Below are positions 39,301 through 51,300 of a stretch of DNA of 64,000 nt, piece after piece. The position numbers are program-made. Within the stretch, counting starts at the first letter, position 1, and every line of letters starts with the position of its first letter. The stretch is from an uncultured bacterium (GTDB lineage Bacteria > Krumholzibacteriota > Krumholzibacteriia > Krumholzibacteriales > Krumholzibacteriaceae), in NCBI GenBank assembly GCA_963813815.1, contig CAWFAD010000007.1, forward strand, positions 32,001 to 96,000, written 5' to 3'.

Positions 39301-42300
39301 CGGCGAGGCGACGCGCGTGAGCGGCGTGCCGGAGGCGATGAACGCCGTGAGCTCGCCGAGCCGCGAGAGCCTCCCGAGGGAGAACACCGCCGCGAGCAGA
39401 ACGGCCACCGGCATGACGAGGACGAGGATCCAGGGGACCATGTACGCGTAGAGGAGGATGACGTCCATGACCCGCGCGTGGAAATCGATGTAGTCGTCGA
39501 TCTGCTCGTTCACGTCGACCGTGATGTAGATCGCCGCGAAGGCGATGAGCCCGATCGCGAGGTTGCGCCAGAAGTCGACGAGGAGGTAACGGTCATGAAT
39601 GCGCACGATGCCACCGTCTCAGCGGATTGTATCGTTCCCAGGCGATCGCCGTGAACTCGCGGTTCGTGCGCCGGATGAGGACGACGGCGACGGCGAAGAG
39701 AATGATGTTGGCCATCCACATCGAAAGCCACGGCTCGACGTACCGGCGGTCGGCGAGCTTCTCGCCGCTGATGAGAAACACGTAGTAGACGAGGAAAAAG
39801 AAGATACTGAAGCCGATCGCCACCGTCATGCCCCGGCGTCCCGAGCGTATCGCGAGGGGGGCGCCGAGCAGTATGAAGATGATGCAGCTCATGGGGATGG
39901 CGTACTTCTTGTGAATCTCGACCCCGTAGCGGTTGATCTGGTCGAGGATGCCGTCGACCTCGTACGTTTTCACGGTGAGCATCTGGAGTATTCGCTCCGC
40001 CTCGCTCGCCGCGCGGGGGATGGCGCGCGGCCTCTCGTCGTCCTGCGTCGCGGCCCTCGCCGGCTCGGATTTCGGCGCGAGCTCCGAGGCTGCCGGCGCG
40101 ACCCGCGCGAGGACGGAGACGACGTGATCGCGGGCCACGCGGTGCATTTGGGCGCGCGCCGCCGCGGCGGTTCCGTCGTATTCGCGGGCGCGCTCGCGCA
40201 TCATGCCCGCGCTCATCTCCCGGTCGCTGCGGTAGGTTCTGTCCGTGCGCCGGAGATCCCTTCCCGCGTCCTGCAGATTCACCGTGAAGTGCTTGAATCG
40301 CGTGAGACGGTAGGTCTTGATGTCCGCGGGATCGGGCATTTCGTGGATCTCGCCGTCGTCGAGCTCGAACCGGAGGACCATGTCCTCCTCGCTGTAGCTC
40401 ATCCGTCCGCTCGTCGCGATGATCGTCCTCGGCGCGGGGCCCTTGCGGTCGTAGATCTGCACGCCGCCGATCGTTCCCGAGCGGTCGTTCTTCTCGCGCA
40501 CGAGTATCGTGTAGCCGTCGACGGCGTCGCTGAAGATATTCTCCCTGATCTCGAGCGTCGGCTTCATGCGGCCGATGTCGATCATGAGGTTCGCGAGCCG
40601 GTGGTTGCTCTCGGGCAGGAGCATGTCGTTGTAGAAGATCATGCCGATCCCCATGACGGCGGAGGCCGCGATCACCGGCCGGAGCATCCGGTAGAGAGAA
40701 ATGCCGCTCGATTTCATCGCGATGATCTCGTTCTCGGCGGCGAGCTGTCCGAACGCCATGAGCGTCGCCGGCATCACGGCCATTGGTATAATTAATGCGA
40801 ACATATGGCCGAGACTGAGCACGAAGAACTCCAGAACGATCGGCAGCCTGACCCCGTTCGCGATGAATTTGCCGATCCAGCGGATGATGAAATCCATGAC
40901 GAATACGAAGGTGATGACGGAGAGCGCGAAGAAGTAGGGACCGACGTGGCTCGAAAGTATGTAGCGGTCGAGAATTTTTGTTTTCATACGCTTACGGTCG
41001 TATCACCGCCGGGCGTCGTGCAAGAATAATGCCCCGCGCCGGGGAGCCGGCCGCGCCGGCTCGAATCCCCTCCGCGGAACCTCGGGATAGAAGATACCGG
41101 GCGCACATCCTCCTTCCAAGACCTTTTCGGAAGAGGAAAGAGGAGAAGAGGCGCAGTGTATCTTTTTATGGACGATAGCGGCCATTTCTGTCTTTTTTCC
41201 GGGACACCGCCGGGACGGATCGTGTCCGGCGAACATCCCGCAACGGTTGTGAAGCATGGCGACTGTAGCATATATTGATTCAGGGATGGCAGCCTTTTCT
41301 CCCTCCCCGCGGTCCCCGGGGAAAACGGCTTTTCGCCCCGCAGGTGGATGAACGTGACGACCACGGGACGCGCTCGGCATTACCGCACACACCCTGCCCC
41401 CGGGCGAATTCTCCGTGCCCTTATCCTTCTCTCGTGCGCCGTCTCCGGCGCGGCATCCGCGCAGACCCTCGACGTCGATCTCGAGCGGATGTCCTCTCTC
41501 ATGGGTCTGCGGTACTACATCGCCGAGCACGGCGAGCTCCCTCCCGGGTACATCCTCCTCGGCGACGTTGGCCTTCGGCCCGGCTTCCTCGAAGCCGATT
41601 TCGAACATCGCCGCGACGTCGTCGAGTTCGACGACGAGATGGGGCTCGTCTTCCGATTCCGCGTTCCGGGCGAGTATCGTTTCCTGCGGAAAGAGGGGCG
41701 GAGCGACCTTTTCTATTTTCTGGAGCCCCGCGATCTCGATATCCCCGGTCTCTCCGTGTCGATCGAGGGAATCGACGAGATTCTCCGGCGGACCCGCGCC
41801 TCCTCCGCGCGGGCGGCCTGGCTCGAGGAGGTCCGCTACGGCCTCCGGCGCGAACGCCTCGAGAAATCGGGCAAGGGGCTTCTCTCCCTCGACATTCCCA
41901 TCGCCCTCCCGAAATCGATCGAGCGCATCATCGGCAGGGGCGAGGAGACCAATCTCACCGTGCAGGGCAGCGAGCGCATCGCGATATCGGGCACGTCGAA
42001 CTGGTGCTCGAACTGCCCCCGCACCGAGGGGCAGCCGAATCAGGAGAAGTTTCCGGACCTCGATCTCGACCAGCAGCTCAGCGTGAGTCTCCGCGGCACG
42101 ATCGGCGAGAAGATCAACGTGGAGATACAGCACAGCAGCGTGGGGGAGGGCGTGCCCTCGACGAACCGCGTGCGCATCAACTACCGCGGCTTCGACGACG
42201 ACATCATCAAGCTCATCGAGATGGGCGACACCGAGTTGAGCCTCCAGGGTTCGCAGCTCGTGAGCTACTCCGGAGCGGCGAAGGGGCTTTTCGGCGTCAA

Positions 42301-48300: not shown

Positions 48301-51300
48301 TCGTCCTCTTCGACGGCGAGGATTACGGCGAGGAGGGCCGGACGGAGGATTACCTGCTCGGCTCGAAGCACTACGCCTCGCGTCTCGGGGACCGTCGCCC
48401 GGAGGCCGTCATCGTCGTGGACATGGTCGGCGAGCGGGGGGCGCGATTCCCGGTCGAGGGGTTCTCGGAGGCCGCCTCCCCGGGGCTCGCGGCGCGCATC
48501 TGGGGCATCGCCCGCGATCTCGGCATCGAGGCGTTCGATCGGCGGCGCGGCCCGGCGATCATCGACGATCATCTGCCCTTCATCCAGGCCGGGCTCGCCG
48601 CGGTGGACATCATCGATTTCGAGTATCCGCACTGGCATACGCTGGCCGACACGCCGGACAAGTGCGACGCCCGAAGTCTCGACGCGGTCGGCCGCGTGCT
48701 CGTCCGGTTTCTCTGGGGCGGGCGGTAGAGCCGGCGTTCCGGGGTGCCTCCGCAAGATTTTCCTTGCTTTCACCCGGGGTTTCCGCTACCTATTACAGCG
48801 TGTGTGGGGCGCGGGCGCCCCACTTTGTTTTATCGCCGCAGCGGGGGGATCCGCATGACGATCGATCGCGCCGTCGAGGAGCTCGTCACCCGTGAGGTCG
48901 AGACGCTCGGATACGAGCTCGTCAAGATCGAGGACTCGTTTTCGGGAGGGCGGGGCACTCTGCGTATTTTCATCGACCGCGAGGGCGCGGTGATCACGAT
49001 CGACGATTGCGTGCGCGTGACGAAATCGGTCGGGCTCGCGCTCGACGGCCTCCCGACGCTGCCGGGACCGTACCGTCTCGAGGTCTCGTCGCCGGGGTCG
49101 TACCGGCCCCTCGCGAAGGCCGCCCACTACGCGCGCTTCGCCGGCGAACGGGCGAGGATTTCGTACCTCGACGAGGCGGGCAAGCGCACGACGGCGATCG
49201 GAACGATCGCGGGGGCGGAAGAGGCGGCGGTCACGATCCGCGCCGATGACGGCGAGCGGACGATTTCGTACGACAGGATTCTCCGCGCGAACCTCCAGCC
49301 GGACGACGGCTCGAGGGAAGAGCCCCGGGGACCGCGCCGCGGCCGGCGGCCGGGACGGCGGGGATAAACGTTTTGACTTTGGCGGTGCGCTGCCCTACAA
49401 TGCGTTGATTAGCCGACAAGGGAGAAGGATGCGATGAACGGCGGCTTCGTGGAAGCATTCGCGCAGATCATACGCGAGAAAAAAGTCGAGAAAAGCACGC
49501 TCGTCGAAATGATCAAATCGAGCCTCGTTTCGGCGGGCAAGCGCAAGTACGGCCAGAACGCCGAATTCCGCGTCGTCCTCGACGAATCGAAGGGAATGCT
49601 CGAGATCTATCGGACCTACCGGATCGTCGATGAGGTCGTCGAGGCCGCGGCGGAGCTGACGCTCGCCGAGGCGAAAAAGATCGACAAATCGGCGAAGACG
49701 GGGGGCGAGATCGAGGTGTATATCTCCCTCGACGAGTTCGGACGCAACGCCGTGCAGACCGCCAAGCAAGTTCTCATGCAGAAGGTTCGCGAGGCCGAGC
49801 GCGATCGCATCTATGACGAATACAAGGACAAGGTGGGCGTCATCGTGTCCGGCACCGTGCGCCAGGTCGATCGCGGGAACATTCTCGTGAACCTCGGCCG
49901 GGCCGAGGCGTACCTCCCGCTCCGCGAGCAGATTCGCAAGGAGCGCTACAATCAGGGAGACACGATCAGGGCCATCATTATCGAGGTGGACAAGAACGCG
50001 AAGGGTCCGCAGGTCACCCTCTCCCGAACGAGCGAGCTGTTCCTCCGCAAGCTGTTCGAGCAGGAGGTGCCCGAGATATTCGACGGCGACGTCGAGATCA
50101 GGAGCATGGCGCGCGAGCCGGGCGGCAGGTCGAAGATCGCCGTCCATTCGCGCAACGACAAGGTCGACGCCGTGGGCTCGTGCGTCGGCATGAAGGGCTC
50201 CCGCGTCCAGGCCGTCGTGAACGAGCTCCACGGGGAGAAGATCGACATCGTGAGCTGGAACGAGGGCCAGAACGAGTTCGTCGCCAAGGCGCTCGCCCCG
50301 GCGCGGGTCTCATCGCTGCGTTTCAACGAGTCGGAGCGTTCGGTGCTCGCGATCGTCGAGGACGACCAGCTCTCGCTCGCGATCGGCAAAGAGGGCCAGA
50401 ACGTCCGTCTCGCGGCCAAGCTCACCGGCTGGAAAATCGATCTCATCACGAACAAGGAGATCGAGCGCCGCGACAAGCTCGACCAGAAGCTTCAGATGGA
50501 TATTTCCGAGATGTACGGCGTCACGCCGAAGATGTCGCAGAAGCTCAAGAGCATCGGCATCCTCACGGTCCAGAAGCTGCACAAGACGCCGCTCGATCAG
50601 CTCCTCGAGATCGAGGGGATCGGCGAGAAGACCGCCGAGAAGCTCAAGAACACCGCCGCCGAGACGATGGAAGAGCTCAACAAGGCGCTCCAGGAGCTTC
50701 TCGAGAAGGAGCAACAGGAGGTCCAAGAGGGCAAGCCGCTCTTCGACGAGGCGGTCTTCGGTCCCGACGGGAAGGAACAGAAGTCGAAGACGACTCTCAC
50801 CGAGGCGGATATCTTCAAGGATCTCGGCGACGAATCCGCGGCGGAGGAGCAGGAGGAGGGCGGCGACGAGGATGAAGAGCCCGGCGAGGAAGGGGCGCTC
50901 CTCGAAGAGCCGTCCGGGGACGGCGCGGAGGAAGACGGCGGCGACGAAGCGGCTGCCGACGAAGCCGACGATGAAGACACGGACGAAGCCGATAAGGACG
51001 AGGCGGAGAGCGGCGAAGCCGGCGAGAGCGAAGACGGCGGCGACGAATCCGGCGAGGCCGAATCCGGCGAGATCGATGCACGGGACTCGGACGGCGAGTC
51101 AAAGGGCGCGTCCGATGACGAACCCGCACGGTAGGCACGGAAGGGAGAATCATTCGCGTGGCTAAGATTCGCGTATATGAGCTGTCGCGTAAATACAACA
51201 TCTCGAGCGACGCCCTCATCAAGATCCTCGTCAAGGAGGGCATCGCGGTCAAGAGCCACATGAGCACGGTCGAGGACCGCGTCGAGATTCTCATTGAGCA

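What a model noticed while it worked through the whole genome (the two positions that open the first line are those of the whole stretch)
41354..48728. Type IX secretion system with SprA translocon, PorU/PorV and PorX but no PorK/L/M/N (GldKLMN) motor and ring
g00331 (2151 aa, no row in any table) is the T9SS translocon SprA/Sov; the next gene g00332 is a glutaminyl-cyclase-like M28 protein (in Porphyromonas such a cyclase caps T9SS cargo; recalled). Together with PorU sortase and PorV (C13:3-4810), four more PorV/PorQ-family proteins, the PorX/PorY regulator pair (C10:140427-143491) and 22 proteins with a recognised type A T9SS C-terminal domain, the genome has the outer-membrane half of a T9SS. 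The trans-envelope core that powers all studied T9SS, the GldL/GldM (PorL/PorM) proton-driven motor and the GldK/GldN (PorK/PorN) ring, is not detectable here nor in any of 207 other Krumholzibacteriota genomes, while SprA is in all of those tested. Eithe [...]
Evidence so far: TIGR04189 SprA, six-frame: four segments of one 2176-codon frame C7:73801-77997, 462 bits summed (cut 200); sequence ends in an OMP-type ..EADFKF; SprA over cut-off in 51 of 51 genomes (>=90% complete) sampled across 8 families of the phylum. GldM TIGR03517, GldL TIGR03513, GldN TIGR03523 at E<=1e-5: 0 of 208 genomes each; GldK TIGR03525: 0 of 208 over cut-off, only generic FGE-sulfatase-domain hits <=111 bits, none in this genome. 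Positive controls: the same models hit 4 of 5 (GldM), 4 of 4 (GldL), 4 of 4 (GldN) Bacteroidota genomes over cut-off. No Gld/SprA/PorP/PorT-named family at any mark in relatives.tsv; PorU NF033707, PorV/PorQ NF033709 x5, PorX NF052313, 22 TIGR04183 rows. No adjace [...]
(Added by a program. Inside this text positions count along the whole contig: contig position 32,001 is position 1 of the stretch shown here. "Call 12" and the like, gene names such as g00115 and contig names such as C1 are that model's own, and its searches are not shown. The text may have been shortened before it was handed on; [...] marks where a part breaks off. The agent that wrote the report below was given it as the finding of a first reader that could run no searches.)

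Follow-up and report, generated by a model that had tools for sequence, protein, structure and literature searches.

The report
Type IX secretion lacking known motor
This uncultured sediment bacterium carries the giant outer-membrane pore, carrier barrels, tail-cutting enzyme and dozens of tagged cargo proteins of type IX secretion but none of the four motor-and-ring genes thought to power it, and the same is true of its whole phylum and of a second phylum.

Summary
Window 41348-47809 (+) encodes a 2153-aa SprA/Sov homologue (TIGR04189 461 bits, cut-off 200). The next gene is a lipoprotein type II glutaminyl cyclase (E 1e-57 to solved bacterial cyclases). Elsewhere the genome has PorU, PorX, five or six PorV/PorQ-family barrels and 38-39 type-A CTD tails.

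GldK, GldM and GldN models give no hit in this genome even at E<=10, and GldL gives only noise. None passes its cut-off in 101 phylum genomes, whereas SprA does in 101/101 and PorU in 30/31.

New here:
- A second phylum, reached through a record titled Gemmatimonadota, shows the same pattern: SprA 52/61, GldM 0/61, GldL 0/61.
- In that phylum SprA also occurs without PorU or CTD cargo.
- The divergent lptG-lptF <-> sprA-cyclase arrangement is shared by both phyla.
- I found no GldLM-like gene pair by topology, and no inner-membrane gene beside sprA or porU-porV.

Best reading: a T9SS-type sorting pathway that truly lacks GldKLMN. It may be outer-membrane-only or driven by a non-homologous motor. 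A Ton operon with a PorV-like barrel is conserved across the phylum.

I could not run a Bacteroidota positive control. Earlier notes of this scan report motor-less SprA systems on other DNA (Gemmatimonadota, Marinimicrobia, Elusimicrobiota, another Krumholzibacteriota genome).

The parts
41348..47809 (+). sprA/sov homologue, 2153 aa: signal peptide (..AASA|QTLD), giant outer-membrane barrel, C-terminal ..EADFKF; low-complexity Ala/Gly/Pro/Glu-rich stretch at about residues 1745-1860
   Evidence: TIGR04189 460.7 bits, cut-off 200; PDB 6h3i SprA, E 5e-33
47913..48728 (+). type II glutaminyl cyclase (M28 fold) with a lipoprotein-like signal (..LAAC). The start codon is uncertain (GTG 47913; my gene caller chose 48060)
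   Evidence: PF04389 122 bits; 6qql/7cje/4fuu/6qro, E 1e-57 to 4e-52; follows sprA in 49/67 phylum loci and 12/14 loci of a second phylum
40988..47347 (.). note: the divergent intergenic region lptF<->sprA is 40988-41347 (360 bp), presumably holding both promoters (not analysed)
   Evidence: gene coordinates
39593..40987 (-). LptF/LptG-family LPS export permease, divergent from sprA
   Evidence: PF03739 260 bits; next to sprA in 56/67 phylum loci and 14/14 loci of the second phylum
38527..39606 (-). second LptF/LptG-family permease
   Evidence: PF03739 268 bits; 51/67 loci and 14/14 loci
36914..38530 (-). GWxTD-domain secreted protein (538 aa), function unknown; syntenic but not T9SS-specific
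   Evidence: TIGR04514 54 bits, cut-off 28; 41/67 loci; look-alikes commonest in Acidobacteriota; present in 6 of 9 SprA-negative genomes of the second phylum

Best explanation
The gene is a genuine SprA translocon of a type-IX-style sorting pathway that has no homologues of the GldK/L/M/N (PorK/L/M/N) ring and motor.

Proposed course (inferred):
1. Cargo crosses the inner membrane by Sec.
2. The lipoprotein cyclase encoded after sprA caps N-terminal glutamines. SprA itself would start with Q after signal-peptide cleavage.
3. The type-A C-terminal domain is received by PorV-family barrels at SprA.
4. PorU cuts the tail and fixes the cargo on the surface.

Most likely the machine is outer-membrane-only. 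Direction would come from lateral release of the PorV-cargo complex and from irreversible tail removal and attachment (a chemical ratchet), not from a dedicated proton-driven motor. On this reading the motor and ring are a Bacteroidota addition to an older SprA-PorV-PorX core.

My odds for the sub-claims:
- SprA identity: 0.97.
- GldKLMN homologues truly absent: 0.85.
- CTD export functional: 0.75.
- No dedicated inner-membrane energiser: 0.4.
For: Shown:
- SprA, PorU, PorX and PorV-family models score well over their cut-offs.
- The genome has 38-39 CTD tails in 2.5 Mb, PorU's own among them.
- Four PorV-family genes sit directly after a CTD-bearing gene.
- GldM, GldK and GldN give 0 hits at E<=10 in this genome.
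- All four families are 0/101 over cut-off in the phylum, while SprA is 101/101 and PorU is 31/31 at E<=1e-60.
- In the second phylum GldM is 0/61 and GldL 0/61. GldN is 0/5 in PorU-positive genomes. All 15 PorU-positive genomes have SprA. CTD tails number 93 in one PorU-positive genome against 0 in each of four PorU-negative ones. So PorU, CTD and SprA co-vary as a system without the motor.
- No inner-membrane gene lies in the conserved neighbourhoods of sprA (67 loci) or porU-porV (19 loci).
- Of 17 proteins with GldL-like topology, 13 belong to unrelated Pfam families, and none of the other 4 has a GldM-like neighbour.
- None of the 12 best FGE-domain (GldK-like) hits is followed by a 2-TM plus 1-TM gene pair.

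Inferred: the ratchet mechanism, and the order of evolutionary events.
Against: - In Flavobacterium, proton-motive-force inhibitors stop T9SS secretion and GldL E49 is essential (PMC8986121, passages read). A motor-less translocon therefore contradicts the only tested systems.
- T9SS cargo is thought to cross folded (recalled), so a folding ratchet of the autotransporter kind is not available.
- The Gld models were trained on Bacteroidota, and I had no positive-control genome. The tool itself warns that nothing rang anywhere for GldM and GldN.
- GldL and GldM are short or fast-evolving proteins.
- An ExbB-ExbD-ExbD-TonB operon that includes a PorV-family barrel is conserved across the phylum and could be the missing energiser.
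- There are no expression or secretion data. All genomes are MAGs.
Confidence: 0.42

Rival explanations
1. The pathway is energised, but by a non-homologous inner-membrane motor. The best candidate is the phylum-wide operon TonB-dependent-receptor-like protein, PorV-family barrel, GWxTD protein, ExbB, ExbD, ExbD, TonB. Here TonB would play the periplasm-spanning role that GldM has in Bacteroidota. The second Ton set (with a 753-aa TPR protein) or Tol-Pal are alternatives.
For: - The genome has exactly three MotA/ExbB-family genes.
- One of them lies in C7:125.6-136.3 kb directly after a PorV/PorQ-family gene (NF033709 166 bits by hmmscan, 189 bits six-frame) and a GWxTD gene.
- The ExbB orthologue is in 31/31 genomes.
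- In 20 loci from 8 families the PorV-like gene is present in 19, the remaining locus being cut by its contig end. It is the best-conserved gene of the cluster, at 49-81% identity.
- 5:2 motors of the ExbBD type are the accepted functional analogues of GldLM (PMC8986121, passages).
- Earlier scan notes describe PorV-like barrels in Ton operons in another Krumholzibacteriota genome and in Elusimicrobia. These are leads, not evidence.
Against: - The operon also encodes a TonB-dependent-receptor-like protein, followed by TolC, ABC and HlyD genes. An ordinary uptake or efflux locus explains it without T9SS.
- PorV/PorQ-family proteins also occur in Bacteroides thetaiotaomicron, which gave no SprA or Gld hit (control lines).
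- GWxTD proteins are commonest in Acidobacteriota and occur in SprA-negative genomes.
- No ExbB, ExbD or TonB gene lies near sprA in 14 loci of the second phylum.
- In this genome the PorV-like gene looks frameshifted.
Confidence: 0.3
2. GldK/L/M/N homologues exist but are too divergent for the Bacteroidota-trained TIGRFAM models and the tool's first-look filter.
For: No positive control was possible (carry the tool's warning). Pfam finds no SprA family in this SprA, which shows real divergence from the Bacteroidota proteins. FGE-domain proteins exist in 83/101 phylum genomes.
Against: - SprA, PorU and PorX models of the same kind score 1.3 to 2.3 times their cut-offs.
- GldK, GldM and GldN give nothing even at E<=10 here.
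- This genus has no FGE-domain hit at all.
- The best FGE hits match only the generic half of the model and have no gldLMN-like genes downstream in 12 of 12 loci.
- No GldL+GldM-like adjacent pair appears by topology.
Confidence: 0.1
3. SprA's main job in these phyla is not export of CTD cargo but some outer-membrane biogenesis or other export task tied to LPS transport. The CTD/PorU module would be a later or separate user.
For: - The divergent lptG-lptF <-> sprA arrangement is kept in two phyla whose SprA proteins are only 22-30% identical.
- In the second phylum SprA is in 52/61 genomes but PorU in 15/61. Four SprA-positive genomes have 0 CTD tails yet keep PorX and PorV-family genes.
- The porU-porV operon lies beside a POTRA-domain (BamA-like) gene.
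Against: - In Krumholzibacteriota SprA, PorU and many CTD proteins are all universal in the samples.
- PorU never occurs without SprA.
- Homology to the solved translocon runs along most of the protein.
- Conserved synteny may be only inherited gene order.
Confidence: 0.1
4. The missing genes are an artefact of incomplete or mis-binned metagenome assemblies.
For: This genome is 90.8% complete in 16 contigs. PorU is cut by a contig start.
Against: Results are 0/101 for each family in genomes at least 90% complete, several of them in 1-5 contigs, and 0/61 in another phylum.
Confidence: 0.02

Closest known systems
Bacteroidota type IX secretion system (F. johnsoniae SprA-PorV/Plug translocon, PDB 6H3I/6H3J; P. 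gingivalis Sov, PorU-PorV-PorZ-PorQ attachment complex, PorXY)
   Same: Giant SprA barrel, PorV-family barrels, C25-type sortase PorU with its own CTD, type-A CTD cargo, PorX response regulator with a PglZ domain, and a type II glutaminyl cyclase.
   Different: [quoted passage not shown]
- PorV reaches only the family model, not the PorV equivalog cut-off.
- There are several PorV-like barrels, each after a cargo gene.
- sprA is divergently paired with lptFG and followed by the cyclase.
- PorX is present although its reported partner PorL is not. The PorX-PorL link is known to me only from the title of PMC5005315 in the listing.
Type II glutaminyl cyclases of oral Bacteroidota (solved entries 6qql, 6qro, 7cje, 4fuu)
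   Same: M28 fold with full-length similarity at E 1e-57 to 4e-52 and a lipoprotein-type signal. Q is the most enriched residue after AxA-like cleavage motifs in this proteome: 2.3-fold, in 58 of 770 proteins with an N-terminal hydrophobic region.
   Different: It lies outside Bacteroidota and is genetically coupled to sprA. The Q enrichment is modest and my site prediction is crude. Catalytic residues were not checked.
Ton system (ExbB-ExbD-TonB with TonB-dependent receptors)
   Same: Two ExbB-ExbD-ExbD-TonB sets plus Tol-Pal are present. This is a periplasm-spanning, proton-driven way to do work at the outer membrane.
   Different: No known Ton system powers protein export through SprA. The link here is only gene neighbourhood with a PorV-like barrel.
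Outer-membrane-only export routes (type V autotransporters and two-partner secretion, curli CsgG; recalled)
   Same: They export across the outer membrane without an inner-membrane motor.
   Different: They move unfolded chains through small barrels. SprA is a very large barrel believed to pass folded cargo.

Membership tests
SprA/Sov translocon (TIGR04189) | Whole-protein score over the curated cut-off (200 bits) | tested here: met
   460.7 bits in 4 stretches; 462.1 bits by six-frame search
SprA/Sov translocon (TIGR04189) | Sequence similarity to the solved F. johnsoniae SprA | tested here: met
   6h3i/6h3j, E 5e-33, 116 bits, 3 stretches
SprA/Sov translocon (TIGR04189) | Size above 2000 aa, signal peptide, C-terminal aromatic barrel signature | tested here: met
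   2153 aa..AASA|QTLD..EADFKF
SprA/Sov translocon (TIGR04189) | 36-strand barrel with lateral opening closed by PorV | not testable with these tools
   The protein exceeds the 1200-aa limit of the structure tool
Canonical T9SS | PorL/GldL-PorM/GldM proton-driven motor | tested here: not met
   GldM: 0 hits at E<=10 in this genome and 0/101 in the phylum. GldL: noise only, 0/101 over cut-off. No GldLM-like pair by topology. No positive control was available.
Canonical T9SS | PorK/GldK-PorN/GldN ring | tested here: not met
   GldK and GldN: 0 hits at E<=10 in this genome. GldN 0/101. GldK 0/101 over cut-off, with generic FGE-domain hits of at most 100.5 bits.
Canonical T9SS | PorV shuttle | tested here: inconclusive
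   The family model NF033709 is met (202 bits against 90). The PorV equivalog NF033710 scores 146 bits, below its cut-off of 250.
Canonical T9SS | PorU sortase | tested here: met
   NF033707 543 bits against 420; Peptidase_C25; 31/31 phylum genomes
Canonical T9SS | Cargo with type-A CTD (TIGR04183) | tested here: met
   39 places at E<=1e-3, 38 over cut-off
Canonical T9SS | PorX/PorY regulators | tested here: met
   PorX NF052313 637 bits against 300. The adjacent histidine kinase is generic.
Canonical T9SS | PorW/SprE, PorT, PorP/SprF, PorZ, PorQ, PorE, PorG, Plug | not tested
   Only 19 chosen proteins were scanned. The best PorW/SprE score was 109 bits (below 250) on a TPR protein, PorE 39 bits, PorQ at most 70 bits, PorP 19 bits. 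No genome-wide search was made.
Canonical T9SS | Secretion depends on the proton-motive force | not testable with these tools
   Needs a cultured organism
Type II glutaminyl cyclase | Full-length similarity to solved bacterial type II cyclases | tested here: met
   E 1e-57 to 4e-52 over residues 2-268
Type II glutaminyl cyclase | Single-zinc site and catalytic residues | not tested
   The alignment was not inspected residue by residue

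The most novel reading that the evidence does not exclude
The type IX translocon is older and more widespread than the type IX motor. A core of SprA, PorV-family barrels, PorX and a glutaminyl cyclase, genetically tied to the LPS exporter LptFG, exists in at least two non-Bacteroidota phyla. Earlier unchecked notes of this scan add Marinimicrobia and Elusimicrobiota. This core exports proteins with no GldKLMN at all. The PorU/CTD sorting module was added in some lineages. The proton-driven GldLM-GldKN machine was added only in Bacteroidota, perhaps for gliding rather than for transport as such.
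Probability: 0.45. Interest if true: 0.85.

Novelty: new variant of a known kind. Interest (0 to 1): 0.7.

Why it matters
All mechanistic models of type IX secretion place the PorLM/GldLM motor and PorKN/GldKN ring at the centre. [quoted passage not shown]

Whole phyla with a rich CTD cargo set, PorU, PorV and SprA but no motor raise two possibilities. Either the translocon can work without that motor, or another energy coupler exists. Either answer would change how the energy step is understood.

The finding also gives an evolutionary order for the machine, and it points to cultured organisms outside Bacteroidota in which the question can be tested.

The conserved pairing of sprA with lptFG and a glutaminyl cyclase is a further lead. 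It links protein sorting, LPS export and N-terminal capping.

Tried and rejected
1. Positive control for the Gld models. None of the 14 control genomes rings over cut-off. This stays open.

2. GWxTD proteins as T9SS parts. Rejected: they are in 55/61 genomes of the second phylum, including 6 of 9 SprA-negative ones, and their look-alikes are commonest in Acidobacteriota.

3. GldL-like candidates by topology. There were 17 candidates. Thirteen belong to other Pfam families, and the weak GldL hit is a chemoreceptor. The best-looking candidate, C6:39443-40183, resembles the MJ1433 family. The other three orphans have no GldM-like neighbour.

4. A hidden gldLMN operon behind FGE-domain genes: 0 of 12 loci.

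5. The TPR753 protein as PorW/SprE. It scores only 109 bits against a cut-off of 250, and the match is on TPR repeats. It fits YbgF-type repeats better.

6. The 1132-aa barrel in the porU operon as an SprA paralogue. It shares only a 64-residue stretch with SprA (37 bits).

7. My first signal-peptide site predictor cut inside hydrophobic cores and was discarded. A motif-enrichment count replaced it.

8. Literature. Searches found no paper describing a motor-less T9SS or T9SS in Krumholzibacteriota, and one search found none on GWxTD. Key distribution papers were not held (PMC3553832, PMC5446621, PMC11588200, PMC7116788, PMC9239094), so they may already make the point.

9. I ran no complex prediction, structure prediction or read mapping. 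SprA is too long for the structure tool, and no binding claim is made.

Full report
WHAT IS IN THE WINDOW

The longest ORF of the region, 41348-47809 on the + strand, encodes 2153 residues. It has a signal peptide whose likely cleavage leaves Q as the first residue (..AASA|QTLD), and it ends in ..EADFKF. It scores 460.7 bits on TIGR04189 (SprA/Sov, cut-off 200) in four stretches. It matches solved F. johnsoniae SprA (6h3i, 6h3j) at E 5e-33. Pfam finds no SprA family in it, which shows how far it lies from the Bacteroidota proteins.

The next gene (about 47913-48728, +) is an M28-fold protein. It matches solved bacterial glutamine cyclotransferases along its whole length, at E 1e-57 to 4e-52, and carries a lipobox-like ..LAAC.

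Upstream and divergent lie two LptF/LptG-family permease genes and a 538-aa GWxTD-domain gene. Downstream follow rimP, nusA, infB, rbfA, truB and ribF.

THE REST OF THE SYSTEM IN THIS GENOME

The genome is 2.53 Mb in 16 contigs and 90.8% complete.

- Contig C13 starts inside PorU (NF033707 543 bits against 420; Peptidase_C25; its own CTD).
- PorU is followed by a PorV-family barrel. The family model NF033709 gives 202 bits against 90, but the PorV equivalog gives only 146 bits, below its cut-off of 250.
- Next comes an M6-like protein with a CTD.
- C10 has a histidine kinase next to PorX (NF052313 637 bits against 300).
- Six-frame searches give 39 type-A CTD places at E<=1e-3, 38 of them over cut-off.
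- They give five PorV/PorQ-family places plainly over cut-off and one more when summed.
- Four of these barrels lie directly after a CTD-bearing gene.

THE MISSING CORE

In this genome GldM, GldK and GldN give no match even at E<=10. GldL gives 13.4 and 7.9 bits, inside a gene that Pfam reads as a methyl-accepting chemoreceptor.

Across 101 genomes of the phylum (59 genera, 9 families, at least 90% complete):
- SprA is over cut-off in 101/101.
- GldM is 0/101 at E<=0.01.
- GldL is 0/101 over cut-off, with two hits of about 20 bits.
- GldN is 0/101.
- GldK is 0/101 over cut-off. Generic FGE-domain matches reach at most 100.5 bits, cover only the C-terminal half of the model, occur in 83/101 genomes, and are absent from all 4 genomes of this genus.
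- PorU is in 31/31 genomes at E<=1e-60, and 30 of these are over cut-off.

HOW FAR THE NEGATIVES CAN BE TRUSTED

The tool warns that for GldM and GldN nothing rang in any control genome. I could not reach a T9SS-bearing Bacteroidota genome, because the single genome-contig scan returned only Krumholzibacteriota-like records.

Two indirect controls exist:
- SprA, PorU and PorX models of the same curated kind score 1.3 to 2.3 times their cut-offs here.
- GldK has a well-conserved fold that the model does pick up as a generic FGE domain in relatives.

I added three orthogonal checks.
1. Among 2176 genes that I called, 17 proteins have two or three N-terminal membrane helices plus a soluble tail. 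Thirteen fall in unrelated Pfam families. The four orphans have no bitopic neighbour of 250 aa or more. The best-looking orphan resembles the MJ1433 family.
2. The 12 best FGE-domain hits of the phylum have no 2-TM plus 1-TM gene pair downstream.
3. The conserved neighbourhoods hold no inner-membrane protein. For sprA these are 67 loci, with LptF in 56, LptG in 51, the cyclase in 49 and rimP in 47. Many of these loci are cut by contig ends, so the counts are lower bounds. For porU-porV there are 19 loci.

The porU operon is flanked by small barrel-like proteins, an NHL lipoprotein, a barrel of about 1100 aa and a POTRA-domain (BamA-like) gene. Two upstream genes look like dnaE and accA from their N-terminal motifs. 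That reading is recalled and was not scanned.

BEYOND THE PHYLUM

One locus (L072) belongs to a genome whose record is titled 'Gemmatimonadota bacterium'. The contig itself may be a mis-binned Krumholzibacteriota piece, since its SprA is 38% identical to ours. I used that genome as the centre for a 61-genome sample of 'its phylum'. The name rests on the record title only.

Results in that sample:
- SprA: 52/61 over cut-off.
- GldM: 0/61.
- GldL: 0/61.
- GldN: 0/5 in PorU-positive genomes. GldK was not tested there.
- PorU: 15/61 at E<=1e-30, 14 over cut-off. All 15 have SprA.

One PorU-positive genome has 93 CTD tails at E<=1e-6. Four SprA-positive, PorU-negative genomes have none. They nevertheless keep PorV-family barrels (1, 1 and 4 matches in the three tested) and PorX (both tested). 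An SprA-negative genome has neither.

These tallies include one genome flagged unpublished (G162: SprA-positive, PorU-negative, GWxTD-positive). Without it they read SprA 51/60, GldM 0/60, GldL 0/60, PorU 15/60.

In 14 loci fetched from SprA-positive genomes of this phylum, LptF and LptG lie divergently beside sprA in 14/14. The cyclase follows sprA in 12/14. The SprA proteins are only 22-30% identical to ours. The lptG-lptF <-> sprA-cyclase block is therefore old and not tied to PorU or CTD cargo.

CANDIDATE ENERGISERS

The genome has three MotA/ExbB-family genes:
- Tol-Pal.
- An ExbB-ExbD-ExbD-TonB set behind a 753-aa TPR protein. It fits YbgF-type repeats (216 bits) and scores only 109 bits, below the cut-off of 250, on PorW/SprE.
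- A set preceded by a TonB-dependent-receptor-like protein, two orphans, a PorV/PorQ-family barrel and a GWxTD protein, and followed by TolC, ABC and HlyD genes.

The third cluster is kept in 20 loci from 8 families. Of these 20:
- ExbB is present in 20.
- The PorV-like barrel is present in 19, the remaining locus being cut by its contig end.
- GWxTD is present in 18.
- TonB gives a tblastn hit in 17.

This is the only link I found between a proton-driven motor and a T9SS-type part. An ordinary uptake locus explains it as well. GWxTD proteins are not T9SS-specific. PorV/PorQ-family proteins also occur in Bacteroides thetaiotaomicron, which rang for no SprA or Gld model (control lines). No Ton genes lie near sprA in the second phylum.

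READING

I hold it as shown that this is a real SprA gene in a genome, and a phylum, with PorU, PorV-like barrels, PorX and many CTD cargo proteins.

I hold it as very likely (about 0.85) that homologues of GldK/L/M/N are truly absent.

How transport is driven is inferred. My first choice (about 0.4) is an outer-membrane-only machine whose direction comes from PorV-cargo release and irreversible tail removal by PorU. My second (about 0.3) is a non-homologous motor, with the Ton operon above as best candidate.

Against the first choice stands the fact that in Flavobacterium proton-motive-force inhibitors prevent substrate secretion and GldL E49 is needed (PMC8986121, passages read).

LITERATURE

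What I read, as passages only:
- TXSScan found T9SS in 60 of 97 Bacteroidetes genomes and in no other clade, using a model that includes GldK, L, M and N (PMC4793230).
- A 2023 review calls T9SS genes and CTD proteins restricted to Bacteroidota (PMC10202324).
- A Fibrobacter succinogenes proteome study reports TIGR04183 tails on cellulases, with no peptides found from the tail. It says nothing about SprA, PorU or Gld genes (PMC6851124).

No search returned a paper stating that such systems lack the motor. The main distribution papers were not held, so I cannot exclude that they say so.

EARLIER NOTES OF THIS SCAN

I read these after my own tests. They report the same pattern on other DNA:
- SprA without a recognisable motor in Gemmatimonadota.
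- SprA always next to a glutaminyl cyclase, with a Q-rule, in Gemmatimonadota.
- Motor-less T9SS parts in Marinimicrobia and Elusimicrobiota.
- The PorV-like barrel in a Ton operon in another Krumholzibacteriota genome.

They are unchecked AI notes. I count them as leads that agree, not as evidence.

Noticed in passing
window 36914-48728; loci L015-L081 and L089-L102: The block GWxTD, lptG, lptF <-> sprA, glutaminyl cyclase is syntenic across Krumholzibacteriota and, for lptGF/sprA/cyclase, across a second phylum whose SprA is only 22-30% identical. This suggests co-regulation of LPS export, the translocon and N-terminal capping.
   Followed up: partly
G000 C12:212653-216809, C6:88259-91190, C12:155157-170950, C13:6-4810: PorV/PorQ-family barrel genes sit directly after genes whose products end in a type-A CTD, among them a giant protein of about 5000 aa. 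This looks like cargo-specific carrier barrels.
   Followed up: partly
G000 C7:125602-136322 (L085); L103-L122: The cluster TonB-dependent-receptor-like, two orphans, PorV-like barrel, GWxTD, ExbB (with signal peptide and N-terminal extension), ExbD, ExbD, TonB, then TolC-ABC-HlyD, is conserved in 20 loci from 8 families.
   Followed up: yes
L085:6075-7176 (G000 C7:131075-132176): In this genome the PorV-like frame has its first start codon inside the conserved barrel and lacks a signal peptide. An overlapping frame just upstream reads MKRRILLAALAIVMIPG. A frameshift is likely, either an assembly error or a pseudogene.
   Followed up: no
whole proteome of G000: Q is the residue most enriched after AxA-like motifs behind N-terminal hydrophobic regions (2.3-fold; 58 of 770 proteins). 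The proteins include SprA, a PorV-like barrel, the receptor-like protein and TolB. This is a modest 'Q-rule' outside Bacteroidota.
   Followed up: partly
L087:10736-14131 (G000 C13); family 7 in L124-L142: A conserved barrel-like protein of about 1100 aa at the end of the porU-porV operon, just before a POTRA (BamA-like) gene, shares one 64-residue beta-sandwich-like stretch with SprA (41% identity). Like SprA, it gives a weak DUF2460 hit.
   Followed up: partly
window 46580-46930 (SprA residues about 1745-1860): A long Ala/Gly/Pro/Glu-rich low-complexity insert lies in SprA. It is poorly conserved in the alignment of phylum homologues.
   Followed up: no
second phylum: G157, G141, G145, G164: These genomes have SprA but no PorU and no detectable type-A CTD. 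PorX was tested and found in G157 and G141 only. PorV-family barrels were found in G157, G141 and G164. G145 was tested for neither. Their cargo signal, if any, is unknown.
   Followed up: partly
G000 C16:602629-604859: CheR and a methyl-accepting chemoreceptor are present although the genome has no flagellar-stator-type MotA. Its only three MotA/ExbB-family genes are two ExbB and one TolQ.
   Followed up: no
L072 (G105): A 2.8-kb contig in a bin titled Gemmatimonadota carries an SprA fragment 38% identical to ours. That is within the Krumholzibacteriota range and far above the 22-30% of other genomes of that bin's phylum, so the contig is probably mis-binned.
   Followed up: no
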